DNA from: Candidatus Omnitrophota bacterium
Lineage (GTDB): Bacteria; Omnitrophota; Omnitrophia; Omnitrophales; Aquincolibacteriaceae
NCBI GenBank assembly: GCA_035352955.1
Contig: DAOPYQ010000002.1
Coordinates: 140,518 to 204,517, forward strand
DNA length: 64,000 nucleotides
Direction of reading: 5' to 3'
This document shows positions 16,659-45,092 of the stretch, one piece after another. The notes under the pieces are model-generated. The model was not told the origin of the DNA. It ran no database searches and was given only the letters and a program-made list of their open reading frames with translations. The first letter of the stretch is position 1; each line of letters starts with the position of its first letter. Made by a program: the position numbers and the translations under genes.

Positions 16659-17729
16659 CTACGCATGAGAAGGTTCCGGCGGCTTAGCTCTTCCCTTGAT
16701 CCATCTCAAAAATTCCGGTTGGATACACTCCGCGGCAAAACGGTTGCCGGCGATGTTCCAGTGAGTATCGTTCGGTTTGTAGAAACCCGCACGATCGCGA
16801 AACGCGTTCAACAGATCCACATAAGGGACCCCTTGTTCCGAAAGATACCGGCGGAGCAACTTGTTGGGAGCGTCCCATTCCATTTTCTCAGAAAGAACAT
16901 CTTTAGGGAACTTCCTTGAGAGTTGCCGCTGCAGGTCCTGGTCGACCTGCATCTGATCGGGGATCAGGACGAAAGCGATCAAGATCCCTTTCTCACGGCA
17001 CAAAGCGATCATCTCATCCAACTGAGCGCGAACAAACGGCCATCTTGGTTTCAGCTTCCAACTTTCTTTTCCAAAGTTAATGCTTCGTTTTTTTTCGATC
17101 TCAAGAAACGCTTCTTCCTTAAATGTGGCGGCGCCATCCCGGTACACCGGAGCAGGCAAAAGCGGCTGGCGAACAGATTCAAAAAAAACTTTCCCGTTGG
17201 TGAAAAGACGGACCGTTAATAAAGCGTCCGCCCAACTACGCGGTTGGGGTATCGTGTCCAAAAAATCGTTCCCGACAAAAAAAGATACCACCACGGCATC
17301 GGGATGAAAGAACAAAGCCTCATGCCGGAGCACAGACAAATACTCCACCGGCCCGGCTCCGGGAACTCCCATATTCAGGATCTCGATATCAAGCCCCTGG
17401 GCAACACCCCACTCCTCCAACAGTGTCCAATAGTTATCTTTATGGGGCACAATCCCGTACACAAAGGAATCCCCAAGGGCTACGACACGAATACGATGTT
17501 TTTTTTGAAGCGTAAAATCGTGGTCCTTGAATCCAAGATTTTTGCGGCCCGGCTTCTTCCTCAGATGGTTTTTGATTAAAAGCTGTCGTTTCCCAAGATC
17601 GTGCAGAAGTGGCATGGGAATAAAATATTGAGCCGCACGAAGCCCCAGCTCGAATACCAGAAAACTAAAAAAGATCCCGAAAAGGAGCGCAATCCCCCGT
17701 TTGCCCCATTTGGCAGAAAATATGGACAC
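16659..17729 (-). CDS. Membrane-anchored SGNH/GDSL hydrolase (AlgX/AlgJ-like)
   Basis: N-terminal TM. Blocks VVALGDSFVYG (I), MGVPGAGP (II), GNDFLD (III), DTHWN (V). Confidence 0.6.
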   Translation of the reverse strand: MSIFSAKWGKRGIALLFGIFFSFLVFELGLRAAQYFIPMPLLHDLGKRQLLIKNHLRKKPGRKNLGFKDHDFTLQKKHRIRVVALGDSFVYGIVPHKDNYWTLLEEWGVAQGLDIEILNMGVPGAGPVEYLSVLRHEALFFHPDAVVVSFFVGNDFLDTIPQPRSWADALLTVRLFTNGKVFFESVRQPLLPAPVYRDGAATFKEEAFLEIEKKRSINFGKESWKLKPRWPFVRAQLDEMIALCREKGILIAFVLIPDQMQVDQDLQRQLSRKFPKDVLSEKMEWDAPNKLLRRYLSEQGVPYVDLLNAFRDRAGFYKPNDTHWNIAGNRFAAECIQPEFLRWIKGRAKPPEPSHA

Positions 17730-17762: not shown

Positions 17763-18851
17763 TCACTGCGGGACCGGACGGCGTCCTTCCGCCTCGCCAA
17801 ACCGCTTGTAATGCTCATAAGGATCCATGCCGCTCGCCGCGACATCCGGATTTTGTTCTAAATACCACTTGGCATTGAATGTCCGGCGAGGCCAAAAACG
17901 CCGCCAAAAGTTCTCCCCCGTATCTTTTTTTAATTCCGCGATGAGCCGCGCTCTGATACTAGGGGCAAACTCGAACAACCTCTCTAACTGCCGGTCATTT
18001 TCCTTTTGAATATTGTTAATCGTTCCGAGGGTAAATTCTCCGTTCCGTCTTAGTTCCCGGTCCGGATTGACATAGATCAGATCCCTGAAATTATCAGGAA
18101 CGACGCAAACCTTTGTCCCCTTCCGGACAGCCATTCCCCAAAACCACACATCATCGTTGCTGAAAGCGATCCTGTTGAACGATGCTTCGTCGAACACCCT
18201 TGCGTCGAGGCAATGCGGCGGGTACAAAACACCCCCGCTTCCCGTAAAAAAATTGAGAAAAGACGGCGACACATTCCGGACGCATTGCTGCCATCCGGCA
18301 TAAGGCCGCAACTCGTCCCGCGGGATCCATGCCACCCGATGGGCCCTGTGACAATGAATAGCGGCCGGCTCTTTTAAGTAAGAGGCGTAAAGCCGTTCCA
18401 GCCAATCCCGCGGATAAAAAATGTCATCATCCGCCGTCACAACAACATCCTCCGGGAATTCACGCAGTGCCGGGATAAGTTTCTTATATTGCCTGAGATC
18501 CTTGCACCACCGGATCGTCAGCCCGCACCGCACCAGTCCCAGAACCTGAGCGGGAACATTTTTTTCCTTGTTCGGAAACTGTTCTTCCGCCAGCCACAAA
18601 ATAACGGCGTCCGGCGAAACCGTCTGGTCCAGCAAGGAATAAAGGCAAAAGTGGATGTCATGCATTCTCTCGGGAAAGGAAGTGAGCGAAATGATCAATT
18701 TCGGTTTCCTTGGGACCGAAGTGAGGCTTTTTCCGGAAAATGCCGCGATCCGCGGAGCGACGACTTCCTTATCGATATACCGGATCGAATATCCCGGACG
18801 GATTTCCAAGTCCCGAATTGCGTCTCCACAAAGGTTTTTTTCTGCCGTCAT
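17763..18851 (-). CDS. Putative glycosyltransferase (DxD-type) with C-terminal WY..PDV..HY..G.AEGR module
   Basis: LIISLTSFPERM… and VVTADDDIFYP (DxD). The last 38 aa, FNAKWYLEQNPDVAASGMDPYEHYKRFGEAEGRRPVPQ, match the repeated module found in neighbouring enzymes. Confidence 0.5.
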   Translation of the reverse strand: MTAEKNLCGDAIRDLEIRPGYSIRYIDKEVVAPRIAAFSGKSLTSVPRKPKLIISLTSFPERMHDIHFCLYSLLDQTVSPDAVILWLAEEQFPNKEKNVPAQVLGLVRCGLTIRWCKDLRQYKKLIPALREFPEDVVVTADDDIFYPRDWLERLYASYLKEPAAIHCHRAHRVAWIPRDELRPYAGWQQCVRNVSPSFLNFFTGSGGVLYPPHCLDARVFDEASFNRIAFSNDDVWFWGMAVRKGTKVCVVPDNFRDLIYVNPDRELRRNGEFTLGTINNIQKENDRQLERLFEFAPSIRARLIAELKKDTGENFWRRFWPRRTFNAKWYLEQNPDVAASGMDPYEHYKRFGEAEGRRPVPQ

Positions 18852-21800
18852 CGAATGTTCTCCGCTTTCGTGGTCCGCTTTCCGGCTATCCGCCCGCTCA
18901 CCTGGCCATAGATCGAATCAAGCGCTTTCGCAAGGTTCTCAAGCGAATAATTTCCGACGATCTCCCGGCCCGCCTTCCCGAATTGGGCGATCAGCTCCGG
19001 ATTCTTGCAGAACTGTTCCACCCGGTCAGCCACCGCCCGAATGTTCCGGAACGGGACCAGATACCCCGACCCTTGATCCTGAACCAGTTCCGGAAGGGCG
19101 CCCCCACGATAAGCGATCACCGGACGGCGAGCAGCCATACCCTCGGCGACCGAACGGCCGAAAGATTCCGCGAAAAGCGACAGGTTCAGCACCACATTGA
19201 CCTCCGAAACCGCCGCAACGGGCGTCTCCTTATAGCCGGCAAACCGGACATTCCCAAGCATTTTCGCTCCCTGGTATTCTTTTTTTAATCGTTGTATATC
19301 TTTTCCGTCTTCGGGACCGATCAACATAAAAACGGCCTGCGGGACCGAGCCCTCGCAAAGCTTGGCGATCTCCATCAGATCAAAAATGCCTTTTTTCCGG
19401 ATATTGCTGCTGATCAGACCGAACACGATCGCTCGCGGGTCCACGGTATTGGAAATATCCAGAAGATCCGTTCGCACCACATTGGGTGCGACAAAAACCC
19501 GCTTCCCCGGGCCCAACATTTCGGCCGTTTTCCGGGAATTGGCGACCAGGAAATCGGCGTTCGCGTGGATCTGTTTTAAAACTTCTCGGGGCTTGAGACC
19601 AAATTGCAGAGCCAGCGGCTGGTCCTCCAGAATGATCTCACGAACGTGCATCAAACTGACTGTTCCCGCATTTCGCGCCGCGAGCAAAGGTTCCCGGAGC
19701 ATCAACGTGTTCACATGGACCAACCCGATCGAATGAAAATCAATGATCGAACGGAAGCGGGCGACCACGGAATTTTCCGTCGCAACTCCCCGCGTCCACA
19801 GCCTGCAACGGAAAACATAGACCCCGCTCACAAATTTCCGCACTTCCTCCAGGTAAGAAGGGCCAGGAACGGAAGGAAAGGTCACAAAAACGTTAAGGTC
19901 CAAAGAGCTCAACGCTTCCAGGACATCCAGAAAACTGCGCTCCGCCCCGAACAGTTGCTTATTCGCCGCATGAGCGCATAACAACACGGACATCCTCCCG
20001 TCTTTCAGGGCCGTTATCCCGGGCACATAGCTGTCCTCACAGGGAACATCTCCTGCGGAAAGATCCCCGACCCAGAAACGAAAAGGATGGGCGCATTCCG
20101 GCCGTTTGTTTTCTACCGGGACATCCGCACCCACCAAGACGGGCGCGTGTATCGCGACCCCGTCCTTCAGATAATCGTTCGCATCCACCGTCCATCCGGC
20201 GACCTCAAAACCGTCTTGCCGATAATAGGCCGTGTCATCTGGTTCTATTTTTCCTTGCCATCTTCCAAAAAATTCACGCCGGTTATGCAAATTGTAAAGC
20301 CCTCTCCCCGGCGTTCTTCCTTCATCATGAAGAACTGTGGAAGTCGCCTCATACCAGCACACTCTCCCGGTTCCCCGCGTTAGGCGAAGACAAAGATCGA
20401 TATCCTCATGTCCGTCGACAAAAGAGGGGTCGAAGCCTTTGACCGCGGCAAAATCCGTGGCTCTCACCGCCAAGCACGCCCCGACCACTGCCTGAAAAGC
20501 GCGGCTCCGGTCCAAAAACGGCTGCCCGTTCCTGCTCCCCTGATAGATCGGATAAGGGATCACGCTCCACTGGGAAAAAACCATCCCGACGTTCTGCACG
20601 CGCCCGTCCGAATAAATCAGTCGGGGTTGCACGGCCGCGACCTTGGGATCGGAAAAAGGCGCTATCAGACGATCTAACCATCCCGGGGTCACGATCGTAT
20701 CGTTGTTCAGAAAAATAATTGTACCTCCGCGGCTGTGCCGGAAACCGATATTGGAACCCAGCGCGAAATGGTAATTCCTTTCGTTTTCCACGAGCCGAAT
20801 CCGCGGATCACTCCCCGCAAGCGTCCTGAACACCGCCCTGTCTTTCGCGGAACTGCCGTTATCCACGAGAATGATCTCATACGGGACCGCAGCGCCCTCG
20901 CCCAGGATCGAACGGACACAACGCTCCGTCAATGCGCCCTCACCGAAGGCGGGGATCACGATCGAAACCAACCGTTCGTCTCTCGAAACTGCTCGGACCG
21001 TCTCCCAGGGAACAAGCTCACCGCCAAGGACCGCCAGGGGATAATGCGGTGCCTTTCTTTTCTCGTCTTCAAGCCGCCATCGAAAACGGACCCGATCGCG
21101 TGCGCCCCGCGTCAGATAGTCCACAAAAGGTTCAACGTCCCGTTTCACGACGTCTGGATTCAATTTTCGATATTCGTTAGGCGAGAAATAACGGTTTGGC
21201 CACAATCCCTCGTGAGTTCCATACAAAAGATAGTGAATGACCCGATTGGTGTCAGGGTGAAAGTAGCTTTCGCATTTCTGAACATAATAATTCTCATCAA
21301 AAAGACCGCTCTGACGGATTGTTGTCTCATCCTTCTCCAACCGCGCAAACTGCTGCAACACATTGGTGGTACTCGCTTTCCCAGCGGAAGATAAGATGTC
21401 GATCACCGACAAACATCCGTCGCTCGGCCGTGATGTCCTGAGATGAAGCAGCCCTACTTTTTCGTTACGATAAACAGGGATCAAGCCGAAGAACCTTTCC
21501 AAAGCGTGTTCTAGCCTTCCGTCCATCCGGTACTCTCCCACCTGTCCCTCCAGAAAAGAGTCCGCAAAACCGCTCAGCTTCTCCAATGCCTCGGGCCTGA
21601 CCCAGAACATCGTCCCCGCAAAAAATCCCCACTCTGTTTTCGGAACTGTCTGACCGTAAAGTTCTTGAGCGAGTTTTTTCAGACCCTGGTAGTTCTCGTA
21701 CATAAGTCGCGGCCCGGACTGGAACAATGGGGCAGGACCGACCATGCAAAGTGTTGGATTTTTTACAAACGCCTCAACCGCCTCTGCAAAATTCGCGTCC

Positions 21801-22459
21801 GAGCCCACCAGCATTTCCAGCATGATCTTACGCCACAGGTCCCCTCCGCCGGGCAATCGGCCGTCCCCCTTTTTGGTATGCAATTTGCACACGACCGCAT
21901 ATTTTTTTTGGATCAAGGTGGGGATCAACGACAAAAAGGGACCGATATCCATCCCGCGGTTGGCGCCAAAATAGAAATGAGCTTTGGGAAAAGATTTCGA
22001 TACGGCAGCTCTTACGAGGGCTTCGCGCTCCGAAGGCGCCGTAATGAAAAGATCAAAGCGGTAACGCAACGCCTCCAATTTCGCTCCGATCTGGGGCCAC
22101 AGCTCAGGATAATAACAATGAACCACAATGGCAATCCGCGGCGAGTGGGGCCCCTCTTCCAAAAAACAAGCAGCCTTGCCATTTTCCTCGAAGGCTGCCT
22201 CCTCAATCGAGCAAGGAGTCCGCCCTTCCGCGCGACCGCTGCAAGCATAATGATGAAAAGGGTCTCTACCACTCAACGCAATATCAGGGTTTCTCTCGAG
22301 ATACCAATCTGCATCAAAACGAAGCCCGTGGATCCGGAGGTGGATCTTTGCCCAAAGCATAAGAATTTTGACATAAAGAAACCAAAGGGCGTCTTTCACT
22401 ATGGCCGGTAATGAACCTGTTCCTTTTTTTTCTCCGATCCTCTTATGCCGGTTCTTCAC
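18848..22459 (-). CDS. Giant three-domain glycosyltransferase: N-terminal WY modules, RgpF-like domain, GT2 domain and C-terminal GT4 domain
   Basis: 1203 aa. DADWYLERNPDIALSGRDPFHHYACSGRAEGRTP near the N-terminus. RIAIVVHCYYPELW (RgpF-like). SIVIPAFGEG…ILVDNGSS (GT2). C-terminal FAESFGRSVAEGMAARRPVIAYRGGALPELV (GT4). ATGA overlaps at both ends. Confidence 0.7.
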   Translation of the reverse strand: MKNRHKRIGEKKGTGSLPAIVKDALWFLYVKILMLWAKIHLRIHGLRFDADWYLERNPDIALSGRDPFHHYACSGRAEGRTPCSIEEAAFEENGKAACFLEEGPHSPRIAIVVHCYYPELWPQIGAKLEALRYRFDLFITAPSEREALVRAAVSKSFPKAHFYFGANRGMDIGPFLSLIPTLIQKKYAVVCKLHTKKGDGRLPGGGDLWRKIMLEMLVGSDANFAEAVEAFVKNPTLCMVGPAPLFQSGPRLMYENYQGLKKLAQELYGQTVPKTEWGFFAGTMFWVRPEALEKLSGFADSFLEGQVGEYRMDGRLEHALERFFGLIPVYRNEKVGLLHLRTSRPSDGCLSVIDILSSAGKASTTNVLQQFARLEKDETTIRQSGLFDENYYVQKCESYFHPDTNRVIHYLLYGTHEGLWPNRYFSPNEYRKLNPDVVKRDVEPFVDYLTRGARDRVRFRWRLEDEKRKAPHYPLAVLGGELVPWETVRAVSRDERLVSIVIPAFGEGALTERCVRSILGEGAAVPYEIILVDNGSSAKDRAVFRTLAGSDPRIRLVENERNYHFALGSNIGFRHSRGGTIIFLNNDTIVTPGWLDRLIAPFSDPKVAAVQPRLIYSDGRVQNVGMVFSQWSVIPYPIYQGSRNGQPFLDRSRAFQAVVGACLAVRATDFAAVKGFDPSFVDGHEDIDLCLRLTRGTGRVCWYEATSTVLHDEGRTPGRGLYNLHNRREFFGRWQGKIEPDDTAYYRQDGFEVAGWTVDANDYLKDGVAIHAPVLVGADVPVENKRPECAHPFRFWVGDLSAGDVPCEDSYVPGITALKDGRMSVLLCAHAANKQLFGAERSFLDVLEALSSLDLNVFVTFPSVPGPSYLEEVRKFVSGVYVFRCRLWTRGVATENSVVARFRSIIDFHSIGLVHVNTLMLREPLLAARNAGTVSLMHVREIILEDQPLALQFGLKPREVLKQIHANADFLVANSRKTAEMLGPGKRVFVAPNVVRTDLLDISNTVDPRAIVFGLISSNIRKKGIFDLMEIAKLCEGSVPQAVFMLIGPEDGKDIQRLKKEYQGAKMLGNVRFAGYKETPVAAVSEVNVVLNLSLFAESFGRSVAEGMAARRPVIAYRGGALPELVQDQGSGYLVPFRNIRAVADRVEQFCKNPELIAQFGKAGREIVGNYSLENLAKALDSIYGQVSGRIAGKRTTKAENIR

Positions 22460-24312
22460 GCCTCTTGTTTTCCCTTCACACTAACCGTTTCAAATCCTAA
22501 AGATCTGCATCCCTGAAAGGGCTCGGAAATAACATGTTCAACGGGAACATGTTTATAAGAAAAAACAGGGCACCGTTCCTCTCGCCCTCCTTTTTTCGTC
22601 AGAACAAGATCGATCGTTCCGCTGCCCCATCCGAAAGGGTCCCCGTCAAAAGCGAACCGGTCGGGACTTCTTAGATAAAGACTGGGCCATGCCACCGGTT
22701 TCAAAAATAGCCGAAGCGCGGCACGCCGCCCAAAGATTTTTTCTACAAAACCTCTTTCATCGACGACGCTCGCCGCTAAAACAGTGCTTCCCGCGATAGT
22801 TACGAGAAAATGCTTCGCCCCGCGAGGGATCTTTTTCAGGATCTCCGGATCCCTGACATCCAGCAAAAGATCGTAGCTCTCTTGACCAGCATATCGGACG
22901 GTCAGCACGACACCCTCCGAAAAAACGCTTTCTCCGAGAATTTTTGAGGGGGCGCGAACCGATCCTACGGGTATTCTTTTTTGTTGTCCGTTTTCTGTAA
23001 ACGTTAAAAAAACTCTCCTGAAATCCTCGATCGGGAATGACAGCGGCAAAAACACGACGTTGAACGGATCCGCAGATGCCAAAAGAAAAAAACCTCTGAC
23101 ATTCCGTCGGCCAAGTCGCCCTTCTTTCAGAAAAGGCCTCGCTTGGTCTGCGAATAATTCCGCGACGATTCTTCCTCCCGCGTTGAAAGAAAGCTTTTCA
23201 TAATCGGAAAGCGCCCCCGTAAAACAGCCCCGAGGGGCCTTATTGAGCAAAGGCGTCAATCTCAGGGAAGAAAACCCCCATTTCCCCCTTCCTGTCAGAT
23301 AAGAAAACAGCTCCTCCGCAACGATCCGATTTCCCCATGCATTGGCATGATCAATATGCTCGTTGAAATACAAAAAGGAACCTAAAGAAGAGGGTCCCTG
23401 CGGAGCAAAAAAACTCACGTTCGGCAACGGAGTGAGCTTGCGTAATCCTTGTATCCAGTCTTCCTGAGCTAAAACAATCACATGCTTTGTCTTTGCGGCC
23501 GTTTCCTTAAAAATAGCCGCATAAATAGGCAAAAGTTCTTCCTGGGAGGAACTGGACCATTGATAGTAAAATGGGTTTCGTCTCGAATGAAGATTCGAGG
23601 GCAACACAGCCCGCAAAGCCATGGGCATTCCCTGGTCATACCTCAAATACTGCAGCGGGCACAGGACTTGATTGTAAATTCTGGAAGCCTGGTTACGATC
23701 GCTCCCAAAAACAGACAGAAGGGTAAGCTGGTCATTCTTAAGAATATAGCGCGCATGAAGCGGTCCGTACGAAAAAGGGTGCTGAAAAGAGAGGTCCCTA
23801 TCATAAGGGATGTCATGAATGGTCAGGATCACGCAGTCCAGATCCCGGGAACGGCTGATCAGCTTCCACAACAGAAACTCCTGAAACAATCCGTAGCGGT
23901 TCCCGCCCAAATTAATGACCTTCACACGCGTCAACCCGGCCGCCTTGAACCTTTCTTGAAGAAGTCCCGGATAGGTATAAGCGTCCTGCCCCAGACGCCC
24001 CCCGCTCCGCGTCATTGATCCTCCGAAAATCCCTATCTTGACCGTTCCAGGACCCTCTTGTTCGAGAAGATCCTTAAGATAAGTTGGTTCCATGCTTCCG
24101 TCTTTGGAATCGCCTTGATAGTTGAACCAACCGAGATCGAGATACTCCTGCTGGCTGACGGCGAATTCTTTCCTGAAGGTCGTCGCCAAACTCTCCTGAA
24201 AGACCTTGGGACCCTTTAAACTGCGAAACGCCGCGCGGTATCCGGCGACATACCCCATCCCAAGTAAGGTCACGAGGAGCCCGGCCAGCAATACAGAAAT
24301 AATCTTCTTCAT
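22456..24312 (-). CDS. Membrane-anchored SGNH-like hydrolase/acyltransferase with large C-terminal extension
   Basis: Start at MKKIISVLLAGLLVTLLG (TM/signal). VKIGIFGGSMTRSGG (block I-like GGS) and a DHANAWGNR region. C-terminal ~300 aa have unknown function. Confidence 0.4.
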   Translation of the reverse strand: MKKIISVLLAGLLVTLLGMGYVAGYRAAFRSLKGPKVFQESLATTFRKEFAVSQQEYLDLGWFNYQGDSKDGSMEPTYLKDLLEQEGPGTVKIGIFGGSMTRSGGRLGQDAYTYPGLLQERFKAAGLTRVKVINLGGNRYGLFQEFLLWKLISRSRDLDCVILTIHDIPYDRDLSFQHPFSYGPLHARYILKNDQLTLLSVFGSDRNQASRIYNQVLCPLQYLRYDQGMPMALRAVLPSNLHSRRNPFYYQWSSSSQEELLPIYAAIFKETAAKTKHVIVLAQEDWIQGLRKLTPLPNVSFFAPQGPSSLGSFLYFNEHIDHANAWGNRIVAEELFSYLTGRGKWGFSSLRLTPLLNKAPRGCFTGALSDYEKLSFNAGGRIVAELFADQARPFLKEGRLGRRNVRGFFLLASADPFNVVFLPLSFPIEDFRRVFLTFTENGQQKRIPVGSVRAPSKILGESVFSEGVVLTVRYAGQESYDLLLDVRDPEILKKIPRGAKHFLVTIAGSTVLAASVVDERGFVEKIFGRRAALRLFLKPVAWPSLYLRSPDRFAFDGDPFGWGSGTIDLVLTKKGGREERCPVFSYKHVPVEHVISEPFQGCRSLGFETVSVKGKQEA

Positions 24313-24457
24313 AGAATTCCAAATCAGTTGATCTGATAGATGAAACCGCCCTCCTGAGGGCCGCTTGTGATGATCATAAGGAACAACGTCAGCAAAAAGA
24401 GCGCCATCAAAAGAATAGCGCCCCACAGCACATATTTCCCGAAAGAGATCTTTCCCA

Positions 24458-25438
24458 TTATTTCGTTCCTTGAGAGGAGCCGTTAATGAATTCCCAAGAA
24501 TGCTCGGCGATCAATCGGTGTCCTTCCTTATTGGGATGCGCATCATCACGGGCAACCCAAAGGTCCATGGGCTTTACAATGCCGGAAAAGCGGGGGGCCA
24601 GGTCCAAAACATCGATATGATGGGATCTTAAAAAATCCGCGATCATTTGGTGTTCTTTTTGAAAAGGATAACGGACCAGCTCATGAAGCTCGGGCAGCAA
24701 TACCACCTGCAGTTCGATGTGATTCTTACGGCAGACATCCTGAAGCAAAAGAAAAGCATCCTGAGCACGGGAAAGCCCGGGGTTATTTTTCTGATACAAG
24801 CTGGCATAGTACGCCTGGTATCCTCCGCGAGAAGGAAACAATCTCTCCGCCAAAAGATGCCCGCGGGACCAATAAAGCGTCGCGAGCTGGGAATACCCCA
24901 TGAACCACCATCGGGATTTCCGGGGAGTGATCTCCGCATCATTGATAAAATAAAAAACAACCACTTTGTCGGGCCTGTATTTCAATCCCCTTTCAAGGAA
25001 AAGGTGGACTTCCTGCTCCGTATTATAGTTCCCGGCCCCGAAATTGAGGATCTCGGTCGGTGTGATACGGTTCAATTTTTCTTCCAGAAGACTCTTGAAG
25101 CTGTCCCCCTCTTCGACGCCCCAGCCCAACGTCAGAGAATCTCCGAGCAAAGCGATCCTCCGTTCCGGCCCCCGCGCAACCGTATGCTCCCGGTCCCGAA
25201 GTCCTTCCGAATTGGTCCGGACCTGCACCCCCATCAACTGGAGACTCTTGTCCGGACGGTGGACGTGACCGATCCTGGGATCCGGAGAATCTTTCTTCAA
25301 TTCCAGGGAATAACGGGCCATCTCCACGTCATAGACTGTCCGGGTTTTCAAAAAGACCCGTATGAAAACCTCTCCGGCAACAAGGCAGAGCAATACCAGA
25401 ACACCTATCATGAAAAGATTTTTTAAAAATAGCTTCAT
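24458..25438 (-). CDS. Membrane-anchored SGNH/GDSL hydrolase
   Basis: N-terminal TM. IALLGDSLTLGWG (I), FGAGNYN (II), FYFINDAE (III), DDAHPN (V). Confidence 0.6.
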   Translation of the reverse strand: MKLFLKNLFMIGVLVLLCLVAGEVFIRVFLKTRTVYDVEMARYSLELKKDSPDPRIGHVHRPDKSLQLMGVQVRTNSEGLRDREHTVARGPERRIALLGDSLTLGWGVEEGDSFKSLLEEKLNRITPTEILNFGAGNYNTEQEVHLFLERGLKYRPDKVVVFYFINDAEITPRKSRWWFMGYSQLATLYWSRGHLLAERLFPSRGGYQAYYASLYQKNNPGLSRAQDAFLLLQDVCRKNHIELQVVLLPELHELVRYPFQKEHQMIADFLRSHHIDVLDLAPRFSGIVKPMDLWVARDDAHPNKEGHRLIAEHSWEFINGSSQGTK

Positions 25439-25457
25439 CGATCGTCTTTCCCCGGTC

Positions 25458-27089
25458 TCAGGAATGGATCTTCCGGCGTTCTTTTTTCCCGAACCTTAAA
25501 TAATGCGCTTCCGCTTTTTCTTTCGTGTTGATCCCCGCTCTTTGCAGATCCGGATAGTGACCGACATAGAACTGCCAATCAAAAGAATGAAGTCCATCCC
25601 CGGGATCGATCGTCAAAACCGCTGTAACCGGATCCCCACGGAGCGCCATCCGCAACGGAAAAAGCCCCATAGGCTCCCTCCGCTCGTTGACGATCCGCAA
25701 CACATATTCCGACGAATATTCTTTTTTGATGACCGGAACTTCGTTCAAATCCCAATCCTGGGGATACTGGTATTTGTCCATATAAGGAACAAAAAGGGGC
25801 CGGAAGAATTCCACATCCGCCGGAGTAAACCAGTCCTTCCATCCTCCGTAAGTCTTGCTGCGGACCACCCTCCGCCAGGCAGCGCTCACCTGCGCGTCAG
25901 GATCCACCTTCAATTCCAGAAAATCCTCCAGAGGCCGCACCTTCTTATCCACAAAATCCTCATATTTCATGATAAACGCCGGCCGCAAGAACTCCTGGAC
26001 TTCCTGAAACATCCGAATCCCTTCGGGGATCCGGTGAAGGCGGATGCGCTCTGCCCAAAGGCTTTTTACCGGAACGGAGTGCGGATCTTTTTCTTTCCTG
26101 ACGAGCAAAGTCAGCAGCCGCTGCAAGGCTCCAAGGTTTTCACAGATCAGAAGCGAATCGAACAGCAGATTGCTCAGGATCCTGTCCCGGGGATCCCTCG
26201 TGATCAGCACTTTCTTGTCGAATCCCGCGAACGACGGAAGGTCGAGCCCGGGATTAAAAACGATCTTGGCAAGCACCCCGGAGTCCCGGTCCTTCTCCTC
26301 GGGAATGTATTGATGAGGCTCGAACAGCGCCCGGGCATCCGCCGGCATCCCGGATTTCACGGCAAAAAAGAGAGCCGTGGTCCCCGATTTGCTTTGACCG
26401 ACCAGCAAGATCTTCGGAACGCGGGATCGGCTGGCCGCCAACGCGGGATCGATCACTTCGTGGAATAAATTTCCGTAGACCTTCCGCTCGATCGCCGCCC
26501 ATCGCGGATTTTGATCGTACATTCTTTTGATGTCCTGGGGGCTGAAGCACCGCAAGACCACGCTTTCCGCACTCACGTATCCGGTGCCGAGAAAATCCTT
26601 GGCTGCATGCAACGCGATATCCGCTCCGCGGTTCAACCGTATTTCCCGTATCTTGATCTTGACAGAATCGGGGATTGAAATGAACTTCTGCAGGGTCTTG
26701 ATAAAATCCTCAGCAAGATACTCCACCCGCAACCAATGATCAATCCCCGAATCCAGGAACGGTGCCAGCACCTGATCGGCAGACGCCTTCCCGGTCATTC
26801 CGACAAGACCTTCCGTGATCCGCTCCCGGTCGATCTTCTGAAGATGATCCCGCCGGTACAAATGGTTCCAACGGCTCACAAGCCACATCGGCAACCGCCG
26901 GATGTTCAGGATTCTTGGCTTGCCGGCGCAAAGATCCGGATGATCCGAAAAGAATTTGTGTTTATCGGGATCTTCCTTGCCGTGGGCCAACAGAATATCC
27001 TTGAGCCCTAGAAGATCGAACATGGCCTTCGTGCTGTCGCCGCCCGTTTTTCCCAGATGTCCCCAGCAAAATCTTTCCGTAATGAACAT
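25458..27089 (-). CDS. Di-domain sulfotransferase with C-terminal WY..PDL..HY module
   Basis: N-terminal GHLGKTGGDST matches the 5'-PSB KTGG(T/S) motif of carbohydrate sulfotransferases (HS6ST-like). Second domain LLVGQSKSGTTALF (5'-PSB PKSGTT-like) plus ITRDPRDRILS (3'-PB RDP(R/K)D). C-terminus FDWQFYVGHYPDLQRAGINTKEKAEAHYLRFG. Confidence 0.65.
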   Translation of the reverse strand: MFITERFCWGHLGKTGGDSTKAMFDLLGLKDILLAHGKEDPDKHKFFSDHPDLCAGKPRILNIRRLPMWLVSRWNHLYRRDHLQKIDRERITEGLVGMTGKASADQVLAPFLDSGIDHWLRVEYLAEDFIKTLQKFISIPDSVKIKIREIRLNRGADIALHAAKDFLGTGYVSAESVVLRCFSPQDIKRMYDQNPRWAAIERKVYGNLFHEVIDPALAASRSRVPKILLVGQSKSGTTALFFAVKSGMPADARALFEPHQYIPEEKDRDSGVLAKIVFNPGLDLPSFAGFDKKVLITRDPRDRILSNLLFDSLLICENLGALQRLLTLLVRKEKDPHSVPVKSLWAERIRLHRIPEGIRMFQEVQEFLRPAFIMKYEDFVDKKVRPLEDFLELKVDPDAQVSAAWRRVVRSKTYGGWKDWFTPADVEFFRPLFVPYMDKYQYPQDWDLNEVPVIKKEYSSEYVLRIVNERREPMGLFPLRMALRGDPVTAVLTIDPGDGLHSFDWQFYVGHYPDLQRAGINTKEKAEAHYLRFGKKERRKIHS

Positions 27090-27109
27090 ACCCGATCCTT
27101 GACCGTCGT

Positions 27110-30100
27110 TCAGGCGTTAGCCGGAACGGAACTCCCGCATTGTTTTTCAACCGTTCCGCGCGGCGGCCAAGCAAGCCGATAATCCGCGCTATCAAGCGTC
27201 AAATTGGGATTGTAGGCAGGATCCTTCAACAGCAGATCCCCCCAGGTTTTTTTCATGTAATCACACTCGGAAATAAACCGCGTTTGCGTCTCCGGAGAAC
27301 GATCGTTCCCGCGCGTCGCGGCCTCCCTGTGCCAAAGCTCCGCATACGGCGTCCAGACGTTCCGATATCCCGCTTCACGAATGCGAATGCAAAGGTCTAC
27401 ATCGTTATAAGCAATGGGAAGATCGTATTCATTAAATCCTCCCATCCTCTCGAACAGAGATTTCCGGATCATAAGGCAGGCCGCCGTCACGGCCGAAAAA
27501 GACTGCAGCAGCTCCGCCCGGCCGAGATAACCGGGCGCCCCGCGCCGCAACCCGCGATGAGAATGTGAAGCGATCCCGCCAAGCCCGAGAATGACACCCC
27601 CGTGCTGGAGGGTACGATCGAGATACCACAACCTCGCCCCGACCGCGCCCACCCCGGGCTGAACTGCCAGGCTCACAAGCTCCGAGAGCCATCCGGAAGA
27701 GATCACTTCGATATCATTGTTGAGAAAACAGACCAATTCTCCGGCGGCAGCCCGGACGGCCGCGTTGTTGAGCGCCGAATAATTAAAAGGCCTCCCGTCA
27801 CGGATCACCCGGATTTTTTTGTTGTGCGCAAGATGCTCAAGATACCGAAGCGTTCCGGGATCGTCCGAACCGTTATCAATGATAAGAATCTCATAATGGG
27901 AATAGAGTGTTTTCCGAAGAATACTTTTGACGCATTTTTGGATCAAGGGTAACCCGTTCCGTGTAAGAATCATCAAGCTCACAAACGGTAAGGGAGCCGG
28001 AAGATCGTAACGCACACGGTACCCGTGATCTTTCATCATCTTCGCGCGGGCCCCGATCTTCCGCCTCTGAAGAAATTCATTTAAGGCCTTTTCTCCGGCT
28101 AGGCGGGCATAGGGCTTGGACCCTCCGGATCTCGCGGCCTCGCTCGCCTTATGAATACGCCAATGATAGAGCACCTGCGGGATATGCCGGATCTTGTCGC
28201 CGCCGATCACCTCCAGACAACGCAAGGCCAGATCATAGTCTTGGGATCCTTCCATGCCGACCCGGAGCCCTCCGATCTCGCGGAGCAGTTGCGTTTGGTA
28301 AACCCCGAGATGAGAAATCATGTTATGCGACAGGAACAGATCATAATTCCAGTCGCTTTTAAAATAAGGCTCCACCCGCCGCGATTCTTCATCGATCTTG
28401 TCTTCGTCGGAATAGATCAGACAAGTTTCGGGGTGCTGTTGAAGAACCTCCGCGACCCGGAACAGGGCGCACTCGGACAGCAGATCATCATGATCAAGCA
28501 AAGCAACCCATTTCCCTTCAGCCAGTTGCAGAGCGCTGTTGGACGCGGCTGAAATGTGACCGTTCTTTTCGCGAAAGACGACCTTGATGCGCGGGTCTTT
28601 TTTGATATAGCGTTCCAAAAGCGTCCGGACCTCGGGATCCGTGGATGCGTCGTCGGCAATGCAGAGTTCCCAGTCGGGATAGATCTGGCTCCGCACAGAT
28701 TCGATCGCTTCCTGGAGCCAGAGGATCTTCGGGTTATAGACAGGCATCAAAACAGAAAGCAGGGGGCGGAACTTGAACGCTTCGGCCGCACGACGCATCC
28801 GCCCGCGCGTTTCGTCGGTCAGCGTATCGTACAAAGCGATCCAGCGGCCGTAACCGTACACATCCCAGGTCATGTCCTCAAAGGTCCGTCCCTCTTTTTT
28901 CCCCTTCCGGAGATAGTGCAACAGCGGATTTTCCCCGGAAGCCACAACATCGGGATAATCTTTCAGATACTTGCCGCCGTCAAAACGAAGGCTTGGAGAA
29001 CGCCCTTCGGTCCCTCCGATCGTCAGATAATGTTCGAGGGGATCCCTGCCGGCCCGGGCAACGTCTGAATAGGTTTTCAAATACCATTCGCGATCGAAAA
29101 ACCCCGAATATTTCACGCAATGCATGTCGGAAAGATTTTGCAAGAAGGGGTCTCCCAAAGCCCCGTAGATCCGTAACGCGAGATTTCTGAGCTTGCCGGG
29201 CCGCAGCCGGTTGATCCCCATCAACAACGGACACAACTTCTTTCCCTGCGGAAACGGCCGGTACCCTTTCTTTTTCCCGTCACGCAGATAATGCTCCAAC
29301 GGATTGACCCCGGCCCCGGCAACTTCCGGATATTCTTTCAGATACCACACGCCGTCAAAATATGGCCCCGGCAGACGGCCTTCGCGCCAACCGTGCGTAA
29401 GATAATGTTCCAAGGGATCTCTTTTGGCACGGGCCACATCGGGATATTTTGTGAGATACCATTCCCCGTCAAAAAAACCGGAGCGCTGAATGACCTCTGT
29501 GTGAGAAAGTCCCCATCCCATCGTTTTACCGAACCAGACGCCAAGCCTTTTCATCCACGCCGGAACCCAACGCCCCGCGACCGTGAAAAAATACCAATCC
29601 TCCGAAGCCCGGATCGCTTGTATTTCGTCCCGAAGACTCCGGACTTCCTGATCGCTTTTCGCCGCGGCCGATTCAAACTCTACCGCTCTTTGTTGTTGTT
29701 CGGCGGCGGCTTGCTGGTAGAAGCAAAGATGTTTCTTAAGATAGGCGCCATCGATCCCCCAGCTCAAAAGATCTTCCGCCATACGCGGGGACCGGGTACA
29801 TAATCTTTCATACTCGCCTCTCTTGGACGCGCAACCCGAGGACAAAACCGAACGGATCCGTTCCCAATGATATCGGTAAGCGGCCGTCACTTCTTCGGAA
29901 AGACGGATAGGAACCGGCACCTTTTCGATCCCCGCCAGTTGTCCCCATGAATCCAGAAAATGTTTTTCCGGCGTCTCTTTCTGCCCGATCGTCCCGAGAA
30001 AACTCTGATATTTGTGAGCGGGATACGGCGGAATCATGATTGCCGGGATCCCGTAGGAAACGGCCGTGATGAATCCGTGCAGTGAATTACCAAAATAACC

Positions 30101-30907
30101 GGCGGCATGGGCGATCAACCCGGCCGCGCGCCGGACCGAACCGGGATGGGGGATCGTCACGCAATCCCTGAAATGCGCCGCAAGACGTTCATACAGCGCG
30201 TTTTCCATGATCCACGGCGTCAACGAAAGCAGGACAGGGCGGGCGCGGCGGAGAGAAAGAACCCGTTCAATGCCTTTCCGGATCGCATCCCCCTGAGACA
30301 AAGAGCACTGTCCATTGATCTCGAAAATAAAATAGGTCCCGTCGATCTCCCGGGGATGCTTGGGCCACATTTGCGAGATCCCAAGCGCCGAATCGGGCGT
30401 CACGCGGATCTCACGCCCGGCGGCAAAGTCAAAGAGATACCGGGTGCTCTCTTCATCGCGAACTGAAAGATACTCCGAAACCTTCAGGCAATGCCGGACA
30501 AATTCTACCGAAACTTCGTCGACTGCCCACGGGCATCCCGGCGCGTTCCAGGCTAAAGGAACGGAAAGACGGGACGCCATCACCCCGGCCCCCAGCCACA
30601 ATCCCGGTAAAGCGGCCACGGACGCCATCTCATTTTGCGCCCAGGAACCGATCCTCCAGGGGACAGTCTGGAGAATATCCCCGCCGCCGATCAGGATCCC
30701 GTCCCAGACCTTATCCTTCGCTTTTTCGAAGGAAAGGATCCGGCAGGCATCCTTCCAGGGAGGCGCCGCATCCTCTGGAGCAATGTGGATCAGCGAAAAA
30801 TCCTTCCCTAAAAAATGCTCCGCAATGTGCGGGAGCAACAGATCGCCGTAACTGTCGTGATTAAAAGCTCCCAGATGGGCGATGGTCTTCATGGTTGGAT
30901 CTTCCAT
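27110..30907 (-). CDS. Giant multidomain enzyme: polysaccharide pyruvyl transferase domain, four tandem WY..PDV..HY..G..EGR modules and two GT2 glycosyltransferase domains
   Basis: 1265 aa. N-terminal HLGAFNHDSYGDLLLPHI…ILIGGGDILQ (PS_pyruv_trans/CsaB-like). GFFDGEWYLTKYPDVARAKRDPLEHYLTHGWREGRLPG, plus three further copies. LLSVLMPVYNPK…IADDASTD (GT2 #1). VSLMILTRNG…IIDNGSDD (GT2 #2). Confidence 0.7.
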   Translation of the reverse strand: MEDPTMKTIAHLGAFNHDSYGDLLLPHIAEHFLGKDFSLIHIAPEDAAPPWKDACRILSFEKAKDKVWDGILIGGGDILQTVPWRIGSWAQNEMASVAALPGLWLGAGVMASRLSVPLAWNAPGCPWAVDEVSVEFVRHCLKVSEYLSVRDEESTRYLFDFAAGREIRVTPDSALGISQMWPKHPREIDGTYFIFEINGQCSLSQGDAIRKGIERVLSLRRARPVLLSLTPWIMENALYERLAAHFRDCVTIPHPGSVRRAAGLIAHAAGYFGNSLHGFITAVSYGIPAIMIPPYPAHKYQSFLGTIGQKETPEKHFLDSWGQLAGIEKVPVPIRLSEEVTAAYRYHWERIRSVLSSGCASKRGEYERLCTRSPRMAEDLLSWGIDGAYLKKHLCFYQQAAAEQQQRAVEFESAAAKSDQEVRSLRDEIQAIRASEDWYFFTVAGRWVPAWMKRLGVWFGKTMGWGLSHTEVIQRSGFFDGEWYLTKYPDVARAKRDPLEHYLTHGWREGRLPGPYFDGVWYLKEYPEVAGAGVNPLEHYLRDGKKKGYRPFPQGKKLCPLLMGINRLRPGKLRNLALRIYGALGDPFLQNLSDMHCVKYSGFFDREWYLKTYSDVARAGRDPLEHYLTIGGTEGRSPSLRFDGGKYLKDYPDVVASGENPLLHYLRKGKKEGRTFEDMTWDVYGYGRWIALYDTLTDETRGRMRRAAEAFKFRPLLSVLMPVYNPKILWLQEAIESVRSQIYPDWELCIADDASTDPEVRTLLERYIKKDPRIKVVFREKNGHISAASNSALQLAEGKWVALLDHDDLLSECALFRVAEVLQQHPETCLIYSDEDKIDEESRRVEPYFKSDWNYDLFLSHNMISHLGVYQTQLLREIGGLRVGMEGSQDYDLALRCLEVIGGDKIRHIPQVLYHWRIHKASEAARSGGSKPYARLAGEKALNEFLQRRKIGARAKMMKDHGYRVRYDLPAPLPFVSLMILTRNGLPLIQKCVKSILRKTLYSHYEILIIDNGSDDPGTLRYLEHLAHNKKIRVIRDGRPFNYSALNNAAVRAAAGELVCFLNNDIEVISSGWLSELVSLAVQPGVGAVGARLWYLDRTLQHGGVILGLGGIASHSHRGLRRGAPGYLGRAELLQSFSAVTAACLMIRKSLFERMGGFNEYDLPIAYNDVDLCIRIREAGYRNVWTPYAELWHREAATRGNDRSPETQTRFISECDYMKKTWGDLLLKDPAYNPNLTLDSADYRLAWPPRGTVEKQCGSSVPANA

Positions 30908-44272: not shown

Positions 44273-44363
44273 AGCGCCCTTCCTTCACTCGAATTTATGA
44301 ATACTTACCAGGACGATCGATCCGCGGCAACCCGGCCCATTTTACCAATAACTTATTTTCGGC

Positions 44364-45085: not shown

Positions 45086-45092
45086 GGCTATT

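What the first reader, a model, noticed from the sequence alone, without database searches (positions are those of the whole stretch)
17763..30907. Recurrent ~35-aa module WY(L)xxYPDV(A)xxGxDPLxHY(L)xxGxxEGRxP present at least 9 times across four adjacent glycan enzymes
The module occurs in the following places.
- C-terminus of the 362-aa glycosyltransferase: FNAKWYLEQNPDVAASGMDPYEHYKRFGEAEGRRP.
- N-terminus of the 1203-aa glycosyltransferase: DADWYLERNPDIALSGRDPFHHYACSGRAEGRTP, followed by two degenerate copies.
- C-terminus of the di-sulfotransferase: FDWQFYVGHYPDLQRAG…AHYLRFG.
- Four tandem copies between the pyruvyl-transferase and GT2 domains of the 1265-aa protein: FDGEWYLTKYPDVARAKRDPLEHYLTHGWREGRLP, FDGVWYLKEYPEVAGAGVNPLEHYLRDGKKKGYRP, FDREWYLKTYSDVARAGRDPLEHYLTIGGTEGRSP and DGGKYLKDYPDVVASGENPLLHYLRKGKKEGRT.

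A short conserved module shared by otherwise unrelated catalytic domains, always at termini or interdomain linkers, looks like a docking, oligomerisation or localisation domain that could assemble these enzymes into one complex. I do not recognise it as a named family.
Basis: seen in the sequence. Interest (0 to 1): 0.7.

Follow-up and report, generated by a model that had tools for sequence, protein, structure and literature searches.

The report
Unnamed 38-residue repeat on glycan enzymes
Four neighbouring polysaccharide-building enzymes of an Omnitrophota bacterium carry nine copies of a short three-helix repeat that is very common in bacteria and some archaea, has no name in Pfam or NCBIfam and no solved structure, and probably spaces or docks enzymes rather than catalysing anything.

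Summary
A profile built only from other organisms' proteins finds exactly nine copies in the six-frame translation of the window. All nine lie in the four named ORFs, and nothing else scores above 3.3 bits. The three tandem pairs each have an exact 38-residue period.

The family occurs in three settings: between methyltransferase and glycosyltransferase domains; at the termini of glycosyltransferases and sulfotransferases; and at the extreme C-terminus of RTX-type, presumably secreted proteins.

At three gene junctions elsewhere an array is split two-plus-one across adjacent genes, while fused versions exist. However, most related loci hold only one module-bearing protein, and long arrays look more like spacers.

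The mechanism is inferred, not shown. I rate this a moderately interesting, apparently undescribed repeat family.

The parts
27110..30907 (-). Pv1265: polysaccharide pyruvyl transferase domain (res 20-292), a charged helical segment (about res 395-445), a Trp-rich amphipathic segment, four repeats, then two GT2 domains (res 718-878 and 976-1197)
   Evidence: ORF; Pfam domains. The helical and amphipathic segments are read from the sequence only and were not tested.
29363..29473 (-). Repeat copy 1 of Pv1265 (res 479-515), first of di-module A
   Evidence: 62.8 bits with the independent profile. AF2 pLDDT 93-97, three short helices.
29249..29359 (-). Repeat copy 2 of Pv1265 (res 517-553), exactly 38 residues after copy 1
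   Evidence: 53.0 bits; AF2 pLDDT above 90.
29099..29248 (-). Linker between the two di-modules (res 554-603). It aligns with a degenerate di-module in stand-alone homologues.
   Evidence: Alignment A4. AF2 pLDDT 56-72. No significant repeat score.
28991..29098 (-). Repeat copy 3 of Pv1265 (res 604-639), first of di-module B
   Evidence: 57.3 bits. Di-module B is 64% identical to di-module A.
28886..28984 (-). Repeat copy 4 of Pv1265 (res 642-674), exactly 38 residues after copy 3
   Evidence: 47.6 bits.
29474..29572 (-). Trp/Phe/Lys/Arg-rich segment just upstream of the array (res 446-478, WYFFTVAGRWVPAWMKRLGVWFGKTMGWGL...). Possibly a membrane-interface helix.
   Evidence: Read from the sequence; inference only. 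Similar hydrophobic segments precede arrays in a minority of other proteins (7% against 2% in controls).
25458..27089 (-). ST543: sulfotransferase-like protein with a C-terminal variant repeat
   Evidence: ORF. Sulfotransfer_1 hit E 2.7e-4, below the gathering cut-off.
25464..25583 (-). Variant repeat of ST543 (res 503-542) with a 4-residue insertion before the H-Y motif
   Evidence: 27.7 bits, iE 1.3e-7. The same insertion subtype is seen in stand-alone protein P0005.
18848..22459 (-). GT1203: N-terminal repeat, RgpF domain (res 106-328), a degenerate di-module, GT2 (res 499-641), then GT4 (res 838-1166)
22211..22318 (-). N-terminal repeat of GT1203 (res 48-83), preceded by a hydrophobic/amphipathic segment (res 19-46)
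   Evidence: 53.1 bits.
21191..21301 (-). Degenerate repeat of GT1203 (res 387-423)
   Evidence: 20.7 bits, iE 1.9e-5.
21095..21187 (-). Degenerate repeat of GT1203 (res 425-455), exactly 38 residues after the previous copy
   Evidence: 20.2 bits, iE 2.6e-5.
17763..18851 (-). GT362: GT-A-like glycosyltransferase with a C-terminal repeat. Its start overlaps the GT1203 stop by 4 bases.
17769..17879 (-). C-terminal repeat of GT362 (res 325-361), preceded by the aromatic/basic motif FWRRFWPRR
   Evidence: 60.5 bits. It is 74% identical in the 61%-identical orthologue P0212, including positions that vary family-wide.

Best explanation
**What it is (well supported).** Each module is one unit of a widespread, so far unnamed 38-residue tandem repeat. 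The consensus is F-D-x-x-[WYF]-Y-L-x-x-[NY]-P-D-V-A-x-[AS]-G-x-[ND]-P-L-x-H-[YF]-L-x-x-G-x-x-E-G-R-x-P-x-P-L. AlphaFold2 folds each unit into three short helices plus an extended loop. Consecutive units pack into a confident, continuous structure. About 24 of the 38 positions are framework residues: helix N-caps D2, N10 and N/D19, each of the latter two followed by Pro; Gly turns; and an aromatic or aliphatic core. About 10 positions, mostly on one face of helices 1 and 3, vary freely. This is the pattern of a repeat scaffold, not of an enzyme.

**How it most likely works here (inferred).** The repeats act as a self-associating structural scaffold.
- In cis: the two di-modules of Pv1265 and the decayed di-module of GT1203 hold catalytic domains at a fixed distance.
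- In trans: the single terminal copies on GT362, GT1203 and ST543 stack onto a di-module, or onto each other. This would bring the glycosyltransferases and the sulfotransferase to the same membrane-proximal assembly site as the pyruvyltransferase-polymerase protein.
- In relatives with 10-24 copies between a methyltransferase and glycosyltransferases, the array would serve as a length-setting spacer.
For: **Family size and regularity.** 29,146 representatives match at E<=1e-3 and 3,882 at E<=1e-30. A period of 38 accounts for 1,032 spacings among the top hits, and arrays reach 24 copies. The consensus and per-position information content come from 859 repeats.

**Structure.** In two AF2 models the repeats have pLDDT 88-97, each with three helices, and the junction inside a di-module is also above 90.

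**Accessory nature.** 111 of the 120 closest homologues of GT362 lack the module. The rest carry it at either terminus.

**Selection on the surface.** The GT362 module is 74% identical in an orthologue that is 61% identical overall, including positions that vary family-wide. Third-codon-position identity between window copies is 0.29-0.51, so the copies are old and maintained.

**Docking (Rosetta-stone type evidence).** Arrays are split as [2 modules at the extreme C-end] | [1 module at the extreme N-end] of adjacent genes in three places:
- an E. coli plasmid: methyltransferase | GT2. This split is conserved in at least 16 E. coli genomes.
- an Enterobacter plasmid: hypothetical protein | glycosyltransferase.
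- a Salipiger plasmid: hypothetical protein | glycosyltransferase.

Fused methyltransferase-array-glycosyltransferase proteins exist elsewhere (P0011; 5 of 8 proteins).

**Other support.**
- Stand-alone repeat-only proteins exist (P0161-P0165, P0001-P0007).
- The array occupies the same position as the coiled-coil ruler between terminator and polymerase in WbdD/WbbB-type systems, where multiprotein complexes are established (PMC11231755).
- Some arrays have near-identical repeats (within-array identity up to 0.96), so copy number is evolutionarily labile.
Against: - No interaction was tested. The tools could not run multimer predictions and gave no 3D coordinates or predicted aligned error (PAE), so stacking in trans is pure inference.
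- 27 of 33 related loci hold only one module-bearing ORF within about 10 kb. Hetero-docking is therefore not the general function, although homo-oligomerisation is not excluded.
- The repeat also sits at the extreme C-terminus of RTX/M10 and beta-rich, presumably secreted proteins. There an enzyme-assembly role makes no sense.
- None of the window's own gene junctions shows a split array.
- The attempt to type the single copies as first-of-pair or second-of-pair was inconclusive.
Confidence: 0.42

Rival explanations
1. Polysaccharide-binding repeat. Each unit offers conserved aromatic and polar residues (W5, Y6, H23, Y24, D, N, E, R) to a sugar chain. In biosynthetic enzymes the repeats would hold the nascent polymer, aiding processivity or presenting the substrate to modifying enzymes. 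In secreted RTX-type proteins they would anchor the protein to the cell's own surface glycan.
For: Polysaccharide is the one factor common to the two very different host classes. One class is cytoplasmic glycosyl-, methyl-, sulfo- and pyruvyl-transferases. The other is RTX/M10/beta-rich exoprotein-like proteins with a conserved 6- or 9-repeat block at the extreme C-terminus. That placement matches how cell-surface anchoring repeats are usually deployed (general knowledge). Tandem multivalency suits a repeating polymer. The consensus is rich in aromatic and H-bonding residues.
Against: The framework is almost invariant from Archaea to Proteobacteria, while surface glycans differ enormously. Nearly every conserved residue can be explained structurally as a helix cap, turn or core residue (inference). 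There is no similarity to any carbohydrate-binding or cell-wall-binding family in Pfam or the PDB. No binding was tested.
Confidence: 0.25
2. Passive rigid spacer or molecular ruler only. The repeats bind nothing specific. They simply set the distance between catalytic domains, or between a domain and the membrane. Repeat number would tune glycan chain length or reach.
For: - Arrays of 10-24 copies lie between an N-terminal methyltransferase and C-terminal glycosyltransferases. This is the position of the coiled-coil ruler in WbdD/WbbB (PMC11231755).
- Some arrays co-occur with coiled-coil segments (P0060).
- Near-identical repeats in some arrays indicate recent changes in copy number.
Against: - Single terminal copies, as on three of the four window proteins, cannot act as a spacer between anything.
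- Stand-alone repeat proteins and split arrays imply binding.
- Variable positions are conserved between orthologues.
Confidence: 0.15
3. Membrane-proximal, lipid-carrier, cation-binding or secretion-related element. The module would tether enzymes to the inner-membrane surface or to undecaprenyl-pyrophosphate. In RTX proteins it would take part in Ca2+-dependent folding or in type I secretion.
For: - In the window, aromatic/basic or hydrophobic segments directly precede the modules of Pv1265, GT1203 and GT362, and the GT362 segment is conserved in the orthologue.
- A few other proteins have a transmembrane-like helix just upstream of the array.
- In RTX proteins the array follows the RTX repeats and reaches the C-terminus, where type I secretion signals lie (the signal location is general knowledge).
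Against: - The upstream hydrophobic segment is not general: 7% of arrays against 2% of control segments.
- The module itself is polar and is predicted to be a soluble helical fold.
- It has no EF-hand, RTX-like or dockerin-like Ca2+ loop.
- A function tied to cytoplasmic lipid carriers does not fit exported proteins.
Confidence: 0.08

Closest known systems
Coiled-coil molecular rulers and recruitment regions of ABC-transporter-dependent O-antigen assembly proteins (WbdD of E. coli O9a / K. pneumoniae O3; WbbB of K. pneumoniae O12)
   Same: Both are non-catalytic elements placed between a chain-modifying or terminating domain and polymerising glycosyltransferases. Both occur in systems that work as membrane-associated multiprotein complexes (PMC11231755). 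The methyltransferase-array-glycosyltransferase architecture recurs here. Pv1265 has the order pyruvyltransferase, helical segment, amphipathic segment, repeats, 2x GT2.
   Different: The structure is a 38-residue three-helix repeat, not a coiled coil. No effect on chain length has been shown. The window copies number only 1-4 per protein. The family also occurs in exoprotein-like proteins.
Classical helical repeat scaffolds (ankyrin 33 aa, TPR 34 aa, Sel1-like, armadillo/PUF three-helix repeats)
   Same: Shared features are tandem short helical units, a conserved framework with variable surface positions, helix N-cap-Pro motifs (N-P-L-x-H here, T-P-L-H in ankyrin), variable copy number, and use as interaction platforms fused to many kinds of enzyme.
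   Different: - The period is 38 aa, with three very short helices and a 10-12 residue loop.
- No Pfam repeat family matches.
- The only sequence resemblance is a non-significant E=0.32 to a designed ankyrin.
Dockerin-type and other enzyme docking modules (cellulosome dockerins, PKS/NRPS docking domains)
   Same: All are small, duplicated, non-catalytic modules at enzyme termini, proposed to assemble enzymes. The di-module here (about 76 aa) is of similar size to a dockerin.
   Different: There are no Ca2+-binding F-hand loops and no Pfam Dockerin hit. No cohesin-like partner is known. Unlike docking modules, this repeat forms long tandem arrays.
DUF4214 (PF13946)
   Same: From memory only: DUF4214 is another helical domain of unknown function seen both in glycosyl- and methyltransferases and in RTX-type or S-layer-like secreted proteins of Alphaproteobacteria and cyanobacteria. 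That is a similar dual distribution.
   Different: No DUF4214 hit appeared on any window protein or on 31 multi-repeat proteins. Length and consensus also differ.

Membership tests
Unnamed 38-residue repeat family (defined here) | Significant match to a profile built from repeats of unrelated organisms | tested here: met
   All nine window copies match: six at 47.6-62.8 bits, one at 27.7 bits, two at about 20 bits. The next hit in the window scores 3.3 bits.
Unnamed 38-residue repeat family (defined here) | Tandem spacing of 38 residues | tested here: met
   The window pairs 479/517, 604/642 and 387/425 are all exactly 38 residues apart. The family-wide mode is 38, with 1,032 spacings.
Unnamed 38-residue repeat family (defined here) | Three short helices plus a loop per unit, with confident inter-unit packing | tested here: met
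   AF2 models give pLDDT 88-97 in the repeats. These are predictions, not experiments.
Any Pfam-A or NCBIfam family | A hit over the module at or near the curated cut-off | tested here: not met
   No family covers the module in the four window proteins, in 31 multi-repeat proteins, or in repeat-only sequences at E<=10. The best hits are sub-threshold noise: LPD23 at 22 bits against a cut-off of 27, and NTP_transf_5 at 20 bits against 31.
Ankyrin repeat | 33-residue period, TPLH/GH framework, Pfam Ank hit, L-shaped helix-loop-helix fold | tested here: not met
TPR / Sel1-like repeats | 34-44 residue units of two antiparallel helices; Pfam TPR or Sel1 hit | tested here: not met
   Each unit has three helices. 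There are no TPR or Sel1 hits on the modules. The TPR protein at 9365-11212 is a separate gene.
Dockerin / cohesin-type docking system | Duplicated 22-residue Ca2+-binding loop-helix segments and a cognate cohesin partner | tested here: not met
Coiled-coil molecular ruler (WbdD/WbbB type) | An extended coiled coil between terminator and polymerase whose length sets glycan chain length | tested here: inconclusive
   The position in multidomain relatives matches, but the structure is not a coiled coil. The effect on chain length cannot be tested with these tools.
RTX nonapeptide repeats | GGxGxDxUx nonapeptides forming a Ca2+-bound beta-roll; Pfam HemolysinCabind | tested here: not met
   HemolysinCabind hits lie upstream of the module arrays in the RTX-class proteins, not on them. 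There are none in the window proteins.
Carbohydrate-binding or cell-wall-binding repeats (SLH, LysM, CW_binding, PG_binding) | Match to a known binding-module family, or demonstrated glycan binding | tested here: not met
   There are no Pfam hits and no structural match. Glycan binding itself cannot be tested with these tools.

The most novel reading that the evidence does not exclude
The 38-residue unit defines a new fold class of helical repeat that self-associates. Di-modules would accept single modules from other polypeptides, as in the two-plus-one split arrays. Polysaccharide assembly lines across Bacteria and methanogenic Archaea would use it both as 'velcro' to build multi-enzyme complexes and, in long arrays, as an alternative to the coiled-coil ruler that sets glycan chain length. 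The same unit would tether RTX-type exoproteins at the cell surface.
Probability: 0.22. Interest if true: 0.75.

Novelty: new variant of a known kind. Interest (0 to 1): 0.55.

Why it matters
If these searches are representative, one of the commoner accessory elements of prokaryotic polysaccharide-assembly enzymes has no name, no structure and no assigned role. It matches tens of thousands of 50%-identity clusters across many bacterial phyla and some archaea.

- **Annotation.** Naming it would improve annotation of thousands of 'hypothetical' or partly annotated proteins.
- **Chain-length control.** It gives a concrete handle on how multi-enzyme glycan assembly lines are held together, and on how chain length is set in systems that lack the coiled-coil ruler. 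Repeat number is an easily engineered variable.
- **Exoproteins.** It may also explain how a class of RTX-type exoproteins is retained or assembled.
- **This genome.** The repeats mark four enzymes of a sulfated, pyruvylated and probably acetylated polysaccharide pathway as likely physical partners.

Tried and rejected
1. **Named-family search.** Pfam-A, NCBIfam and PDB sequence searches on the window proteins, on multi-repeat proteins and on a synthetic consensus array gave nothing.
2. **Ankyrin relationship.** This was suggested by G-x-[ND]-P-L-x-H-Y. I rejected it on period, E=0.32, and the absence of ankyrins among the fold matches.
3. **Fold search.**
   - Foldseek against the PDB gave no hit below E=2.9.
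   - The afdb50 library was unavailable.
4. **Short profile in the search for homologous proteins.** The 73-aa di-module profile returned only short proteins, because of the way the tool collects candidates.
5. **Literature.** Searches by motif strings, by '38-residue repeat' and by glycan, RTX and repeat keywords found no description. The 38-aa octatricopeptide (OPR) repeats of organellar RNA-binding proteins surfaced. They share only the period: from my own knowledge they are two-helix units with a different consensus.
6. **Membrane-anchor helix before arrays.** A general hydrophobic helix upstream of arrays is only weakly enriched, 7% against 2%.
7. **Typing the single window copies as first-of-pair or second-of-pair.** Scores of +6.9 and -6.4, against about +/-25 for the training pairs, are inconclusive. 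Much of the signal comes trivially from the tail positions.
8. **'Singles always co-occur with another module protein'.** I discarded this because the loci were ascertained through a di-module query.
9. **Recent duplication or gene conversion among window copies.** Rejected on third-position identity of 0.29-0.51.
Full report
**1. The observation**

The four minus-strand ORFs are present exactly as described. Pfam assigns them as follows:

| Protein | Coordinates | Length | Pfam content |
|---|---|---|---|
| GT362 | 17763-18851 | 362 aa | Only sub-threshold GT2 hits |
| GT1203 | 18848-22459 | 1203 aa | RgpF + GT2 + GT4 |
| ST543 | 25458-27089 | 543 aa | A sub-threshold sulfotransferase hit |
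| Pv1265 | 27110-30907 | 1265 aa | Polysaccharide pyruvyl transferase + two GT2 domains |

A profile seeded on six window copies scored each seed at 65-75 bits and also recovered the non-seed copies. To avoid circularity I built a second profile, rep38, from 859 repeats of other organisms' proteins. I searched it against all 1,222 stop-to-stop segments of the six-frame translation. It finds exactly nine copies:
- Pv1265 at residues 479, 517, 604 and 642 (47.6-62.8 bits).
- GT362 at residue 325 (60.5 bits).
- GT1203 at residue 48 (53.1 bits).
- ST543 at residue 503 (27.7 bits, with a 4-residue insertion).
- GT1203 at residues 387 and 425 (20.7 and 20.2 bits).

The next best hit in the window scores 3.3 bits. 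The three tandem pairs each have an exact 38-residue period. Third-codon-position identity between copies is 0.29-0.51, so these are old copies kept by selection on the protein.

**2. What the module is**

*Family size.* A profile of the seven clearest copies was run against 1.84 billion cluster representatives. It matched 29,146 proteins at E<=1e-3, 17,043 at E<=1e-10 and 3,882 at E<=1e-30. Individual proteins carry up to 24 matched stretches.

*Period.* In the best 150 proteins the spacing between successive copies is 38 residues in 1,032 cases. The next most frequent values are 36 (36 cases) and 76 (35 cases). Many arrays alternate 38 with about 50-66, which means di-modules joined by linkers.

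*Consensus.* From 859 non-identical repeats the consensus is F-D-[TSA]-x-[WYF]-Y-L-x-x-[NY]-P-D-V-A-x-[AS]-G-x-[ND]-P-L-x-H-[YF]-L-x-x-G-x-x-E-G-R-[DN]-P-x-P-L. About 24 positions carry more than 2.3 bits of information. About 10 positions (3, 4, 8, 9, 15, 18, 22, 26, 27, 30) are nearly free.

*Not in the curated libraries.*
- No Pfam-A (2025 copy) or NCBIfam model covers the repeat in the window proteins, in 31 multi-repeat proteins, or in repeat-only sequences scanned at E<=10.
- Repeat-only proteins are labelled 'hypothetical protein' by NCBI and JGI and have no precomputed Pfam domain.
- PDB sequence searches give nothing better than E=0.32, to a designed ankyrin.

*Predicted structure.* AlphaFold2 on Pv1265 residues 470-700, using an alignment of 22 sequences, gave mean pLDDT 82.6. 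The four repeats scored 90-97. Each repeat is three short helices (about 7, 5 and 9 residues) followed by a 10-12 residue loop. The loop inside a di-module is also above 90, while the 552-603 linker scored 56-72. A second model, of a protein with five contiguous C-terminal repeats, showed the same pattern at pLDDT 88-97.

*Reading of the conserved positions (my inference).* D2, N10 and N/D19 are helix N-caps, the latter two followed by Pro. G17, G28 and G32 are turns. F1, W5, Y6, L7, V13, L21, Y24, L25 and L38 form the core. This is a conserved framework with a variable surface, which is typical of repeat scaffolds.

**3. Where it occurs**

*Taxa.* The window itself comes from a Candidatus Omnitrophota MAG; P0211 is a 100%-identity match. 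Elsewhere:
- Plasmids: many Alphaproteobacteria, Ralstonia, E. coli and Enterobacter, Bacteroides, Desulfolutivibrio.
- Genomes, found with a deliberately narrow pattern: Alpha-, Beta- and Gammaproteobacteria, Ruminococcus, Mycobacteriaceae, a cyanobacterium, and two Methanobacteriaceae archaea.

*Class 1: polysaccharide enzymes.* Host domains include GT2, GT4, RgpF, WbsX/GH99-like, WsaF, several methyltransferase families, sulfotransferases, FkbM, GT61 and DUF616. Of eight proteins with an internal array, five have the order N-terminal methyltransferase, array, C-terminal glycosyltransferase(s). P0011 has the same order.

*Class 2: proteins that look exported.*
- M10 metallopeptidases and HemolysinCabind (RTX) proteins with six repeats reaching the last residues.
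- Beta-rich proteins of 800-1,500 aa with no Pfam domain and a conserved nine-repeat C-terminal block.
- Plasmid genes annotated as Ig-like, trypsin-like, Hint or DUF4347.

*Class 3: stand-alone repeat proteins.* These are 100-400 aa long.

*The module is optional for catalysis.* Of the 120 closest homologues of GT362, 111 lack it. Two orthologues carry it at the C-terminus, and seven relatives carry an N-terminal di-module.

**4. How it most likely works**

*Shown.* The repeat is a non-catalytic, autonomous, copy-number-variable helical unit that has been attached to many unrelated domains. Some arrays have near-identical units, with within-array identity up to 0.96 against 0.44 between proteins.

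*Inferred: the repeats associate with each other.* They would do so in cis, forming a rigid spacer, and in trans, forming a docking handle.

The best indirect evidence is of the Rosetta-stone type. At three gene junctions the upstream protein ends with a di-module at its extreme C-terminus, and the next gene, 2-18 nt downstream, begins with a single repeat:

| Locus | Upstream protein (repeat position) | Downstream protein (repeat position) |
|---|---|---|
| E. coli plasmid | Methyltransferase (833-907 of 912) | GT2 (14-51 of 805) |
| Enterobacter plasmid | Hypothetical protein (219-290 of 291) | Glycosyltransferase (4-40 of 736) |
| Salipiger plasmid | Hypothetical protein (115-187 of 188) | Glycosyltransferase (16-53 of 935) |

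The E. coli split is conserved in at least 16 genomes. Fused methyltransferase-array-GT2 proteins exist elsewhere.

Two further points fit this reading:
- In the GT362 orthologue, which is 61% identical overall, the module is 74% identical, including positions that vary family-wide. This suggests a protein-specific binding surface.
- ABC-transporter-dependent O-antigen synthesis uses multiprotein complexes. [quoted passage not shown]

Pv1265 has an analogous order: pyruvyltransferase, charged helical segment, Trp-rich amphipathic segment, four repeats, two GT2 domains. This is read from the sequence and was not tested.

*Against a general hetero-docking role.*
- 27 of 33 related loci contain a single module-bearing ORF within about 10 kb.
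- The exoprotein class cannot be explained by enzyme assembly.
- No window gene junction shows a split array.

*Confidence.* I give the scaffold/self-association reading about 0.42, glycan binding about 0.25, a purely passive spacer about 0.15, and a membrane, cation or secretion role about 0.08.

**5. Locus context**

The repeats sit in a glycan cluster of about 28 kb, roughly 6078-33786. It contains:
- two further GT2 enzymes and a GT4, a TPR protein, a CMP-sugar cytidylyltransferase, a fused ABC exporter, a second RgpF and two SGNH/GDSL-type proteins;
- CysNC and CysD directly upstream of Pv1265, which would supply PAPS to the sulfotransferase. That role is an inference.

A TauE-family transporter and a CHASE2-GGDEF protein follow. 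The product is probably a sulfated, pyruvylated and acylated heteropolysaccharide (inference).

**6. Comparison with what is known, and novelty**

Functionally, the closest analogues are the coiled-coil ruler and recruitment regions of WbdD/WbbB-type proteins and generic helical repeat scaffolds such as ankyrin, TPR and armadillo. Membership of each was tested and not met, on period, Pfam hits and fold.

Seven literature searches, including motif strings and '38-residue repeat', found no description. I cannot exclude a mention in papers outside the held library, or in InterPro member databases that were not available here.

I rate it a new variant of a known kind: a new sequence family, and apparently a new fold, of helical tandem repeat used as an accessory element. 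Interest is 0.55. It is real, very widespread and unannotated, and it makes questions about enzyme assembly and chain-length control testable. Its mechanism remains inferred, and an uncharacterised repeat domain is not in itself surprising.

Noticed in passing
window 30959-33786: CysNC (fused sulfate adenylyltransferase subunit 1 / APS kinase, 640 aa) and CysD (301 aa) lie directly upstream of the pyruvyltransferase-GT2 gene. A TauE/SafE-family transporter sits at 33816-34676. Together with ST543 this suggests dedicated PAPS supply for a sulfated polysaccharide.
   Followed up: partly
window 16659-17729, 24458-25438 (and possibly 15352-16605): Two SGNH/GDSL-type proteins with N-terminal membrane anchors each sit immediately downstream of an enzyme that ends in a repeat (GT362 and ST543). 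One of them has an AlgX-like hit. A third ORF, with no Pfam hit but a similar N-terminal anchor, follows at 15352-16605. They are possibly O-acyl-modifying enzymes.
   Followed up: partly
window 29099-29248 (Pv1265 res 554-603): In stand-alone homologues such as P0161, the linker between the two di-modules aligns with a degenerate di-module. Pv1265 may therefore descend from a six-repeat array whose middle pair decayed.
   Followed up: partly
window 29474-29572, 22319-22405, 17880-17910: Aromatic/basic or hydrophobic segments lie directly upstream of the repeats: WYFFTVAGRWVPAWMKRLGVWFGK in Pv1265, AIVKDALWFLYVKILMLWAKIHL in GT1203, and FWRRFWPRR in GT362. The GT362 segment is conserved in orthologue P0212. 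They may be membrane-interface helices. The feature is not general across the family.
   Followed up: partly
window 18848-18851 and 22456-22459: Four-base start/stop overlaps link the 656-aa ORF, GT1203 and GT362. This suggests translational coupling of these three genes.
   Followed up: no
window 22456-24426 and 15352-16605: Two sizeable ORFs inside the glycan cluster (656 aa and 417 aa) have no Pfam family at E<=1e-3.
   Followed up: no
window 2228-5830: A 1200-aa autotransporter (beta-domain plus four PATR repeats) flanks the glycan cluster. It confirms a diderm envelope for this Omnitrophota genome.
   Followed up: no
window 44001-48000: There is a compositional anomaly: GC falls to 0.44 at 46-48 kb and GC skew reaches -0.26 at 44-46 kb. 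The 692-aa ORF at 45557-47635 has no Pfam hit, and a DUF1016/nuclease-like gene lies at 48877-50199. This may be acquired DNA.
   Followed up: no
window 34737-36530: A CHASE2-GGDEF diguanylate cyclase sits next to the polysaccharide and sulfate genes. It may regulate the cluster through c-di-GMP.
   Followed up: no
L008 5071-18011 (uncultured alphaproteobacterium MAG): Four paralogous genes within 13 kb each end in an identical-format block of six repeats. N-terminal parts differ: the first three contain RTX repeats (the first with a serralysin-type Peptidase_M10_C hit) and the fourth has no hit outside the repeat block. This looks like a family of exoproteins that share the repeat block as a common C-terminal module.
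   Followed up: partly
L034 205-8439 and L028 (Methanobacteriaceae MAGs): Archaeal giant proteins carry 9-17 copies of the same repeat; one is 2,745 aa with 17 copies. Either the repeat has crossed domains of life or it is very old.
   Followed up: no
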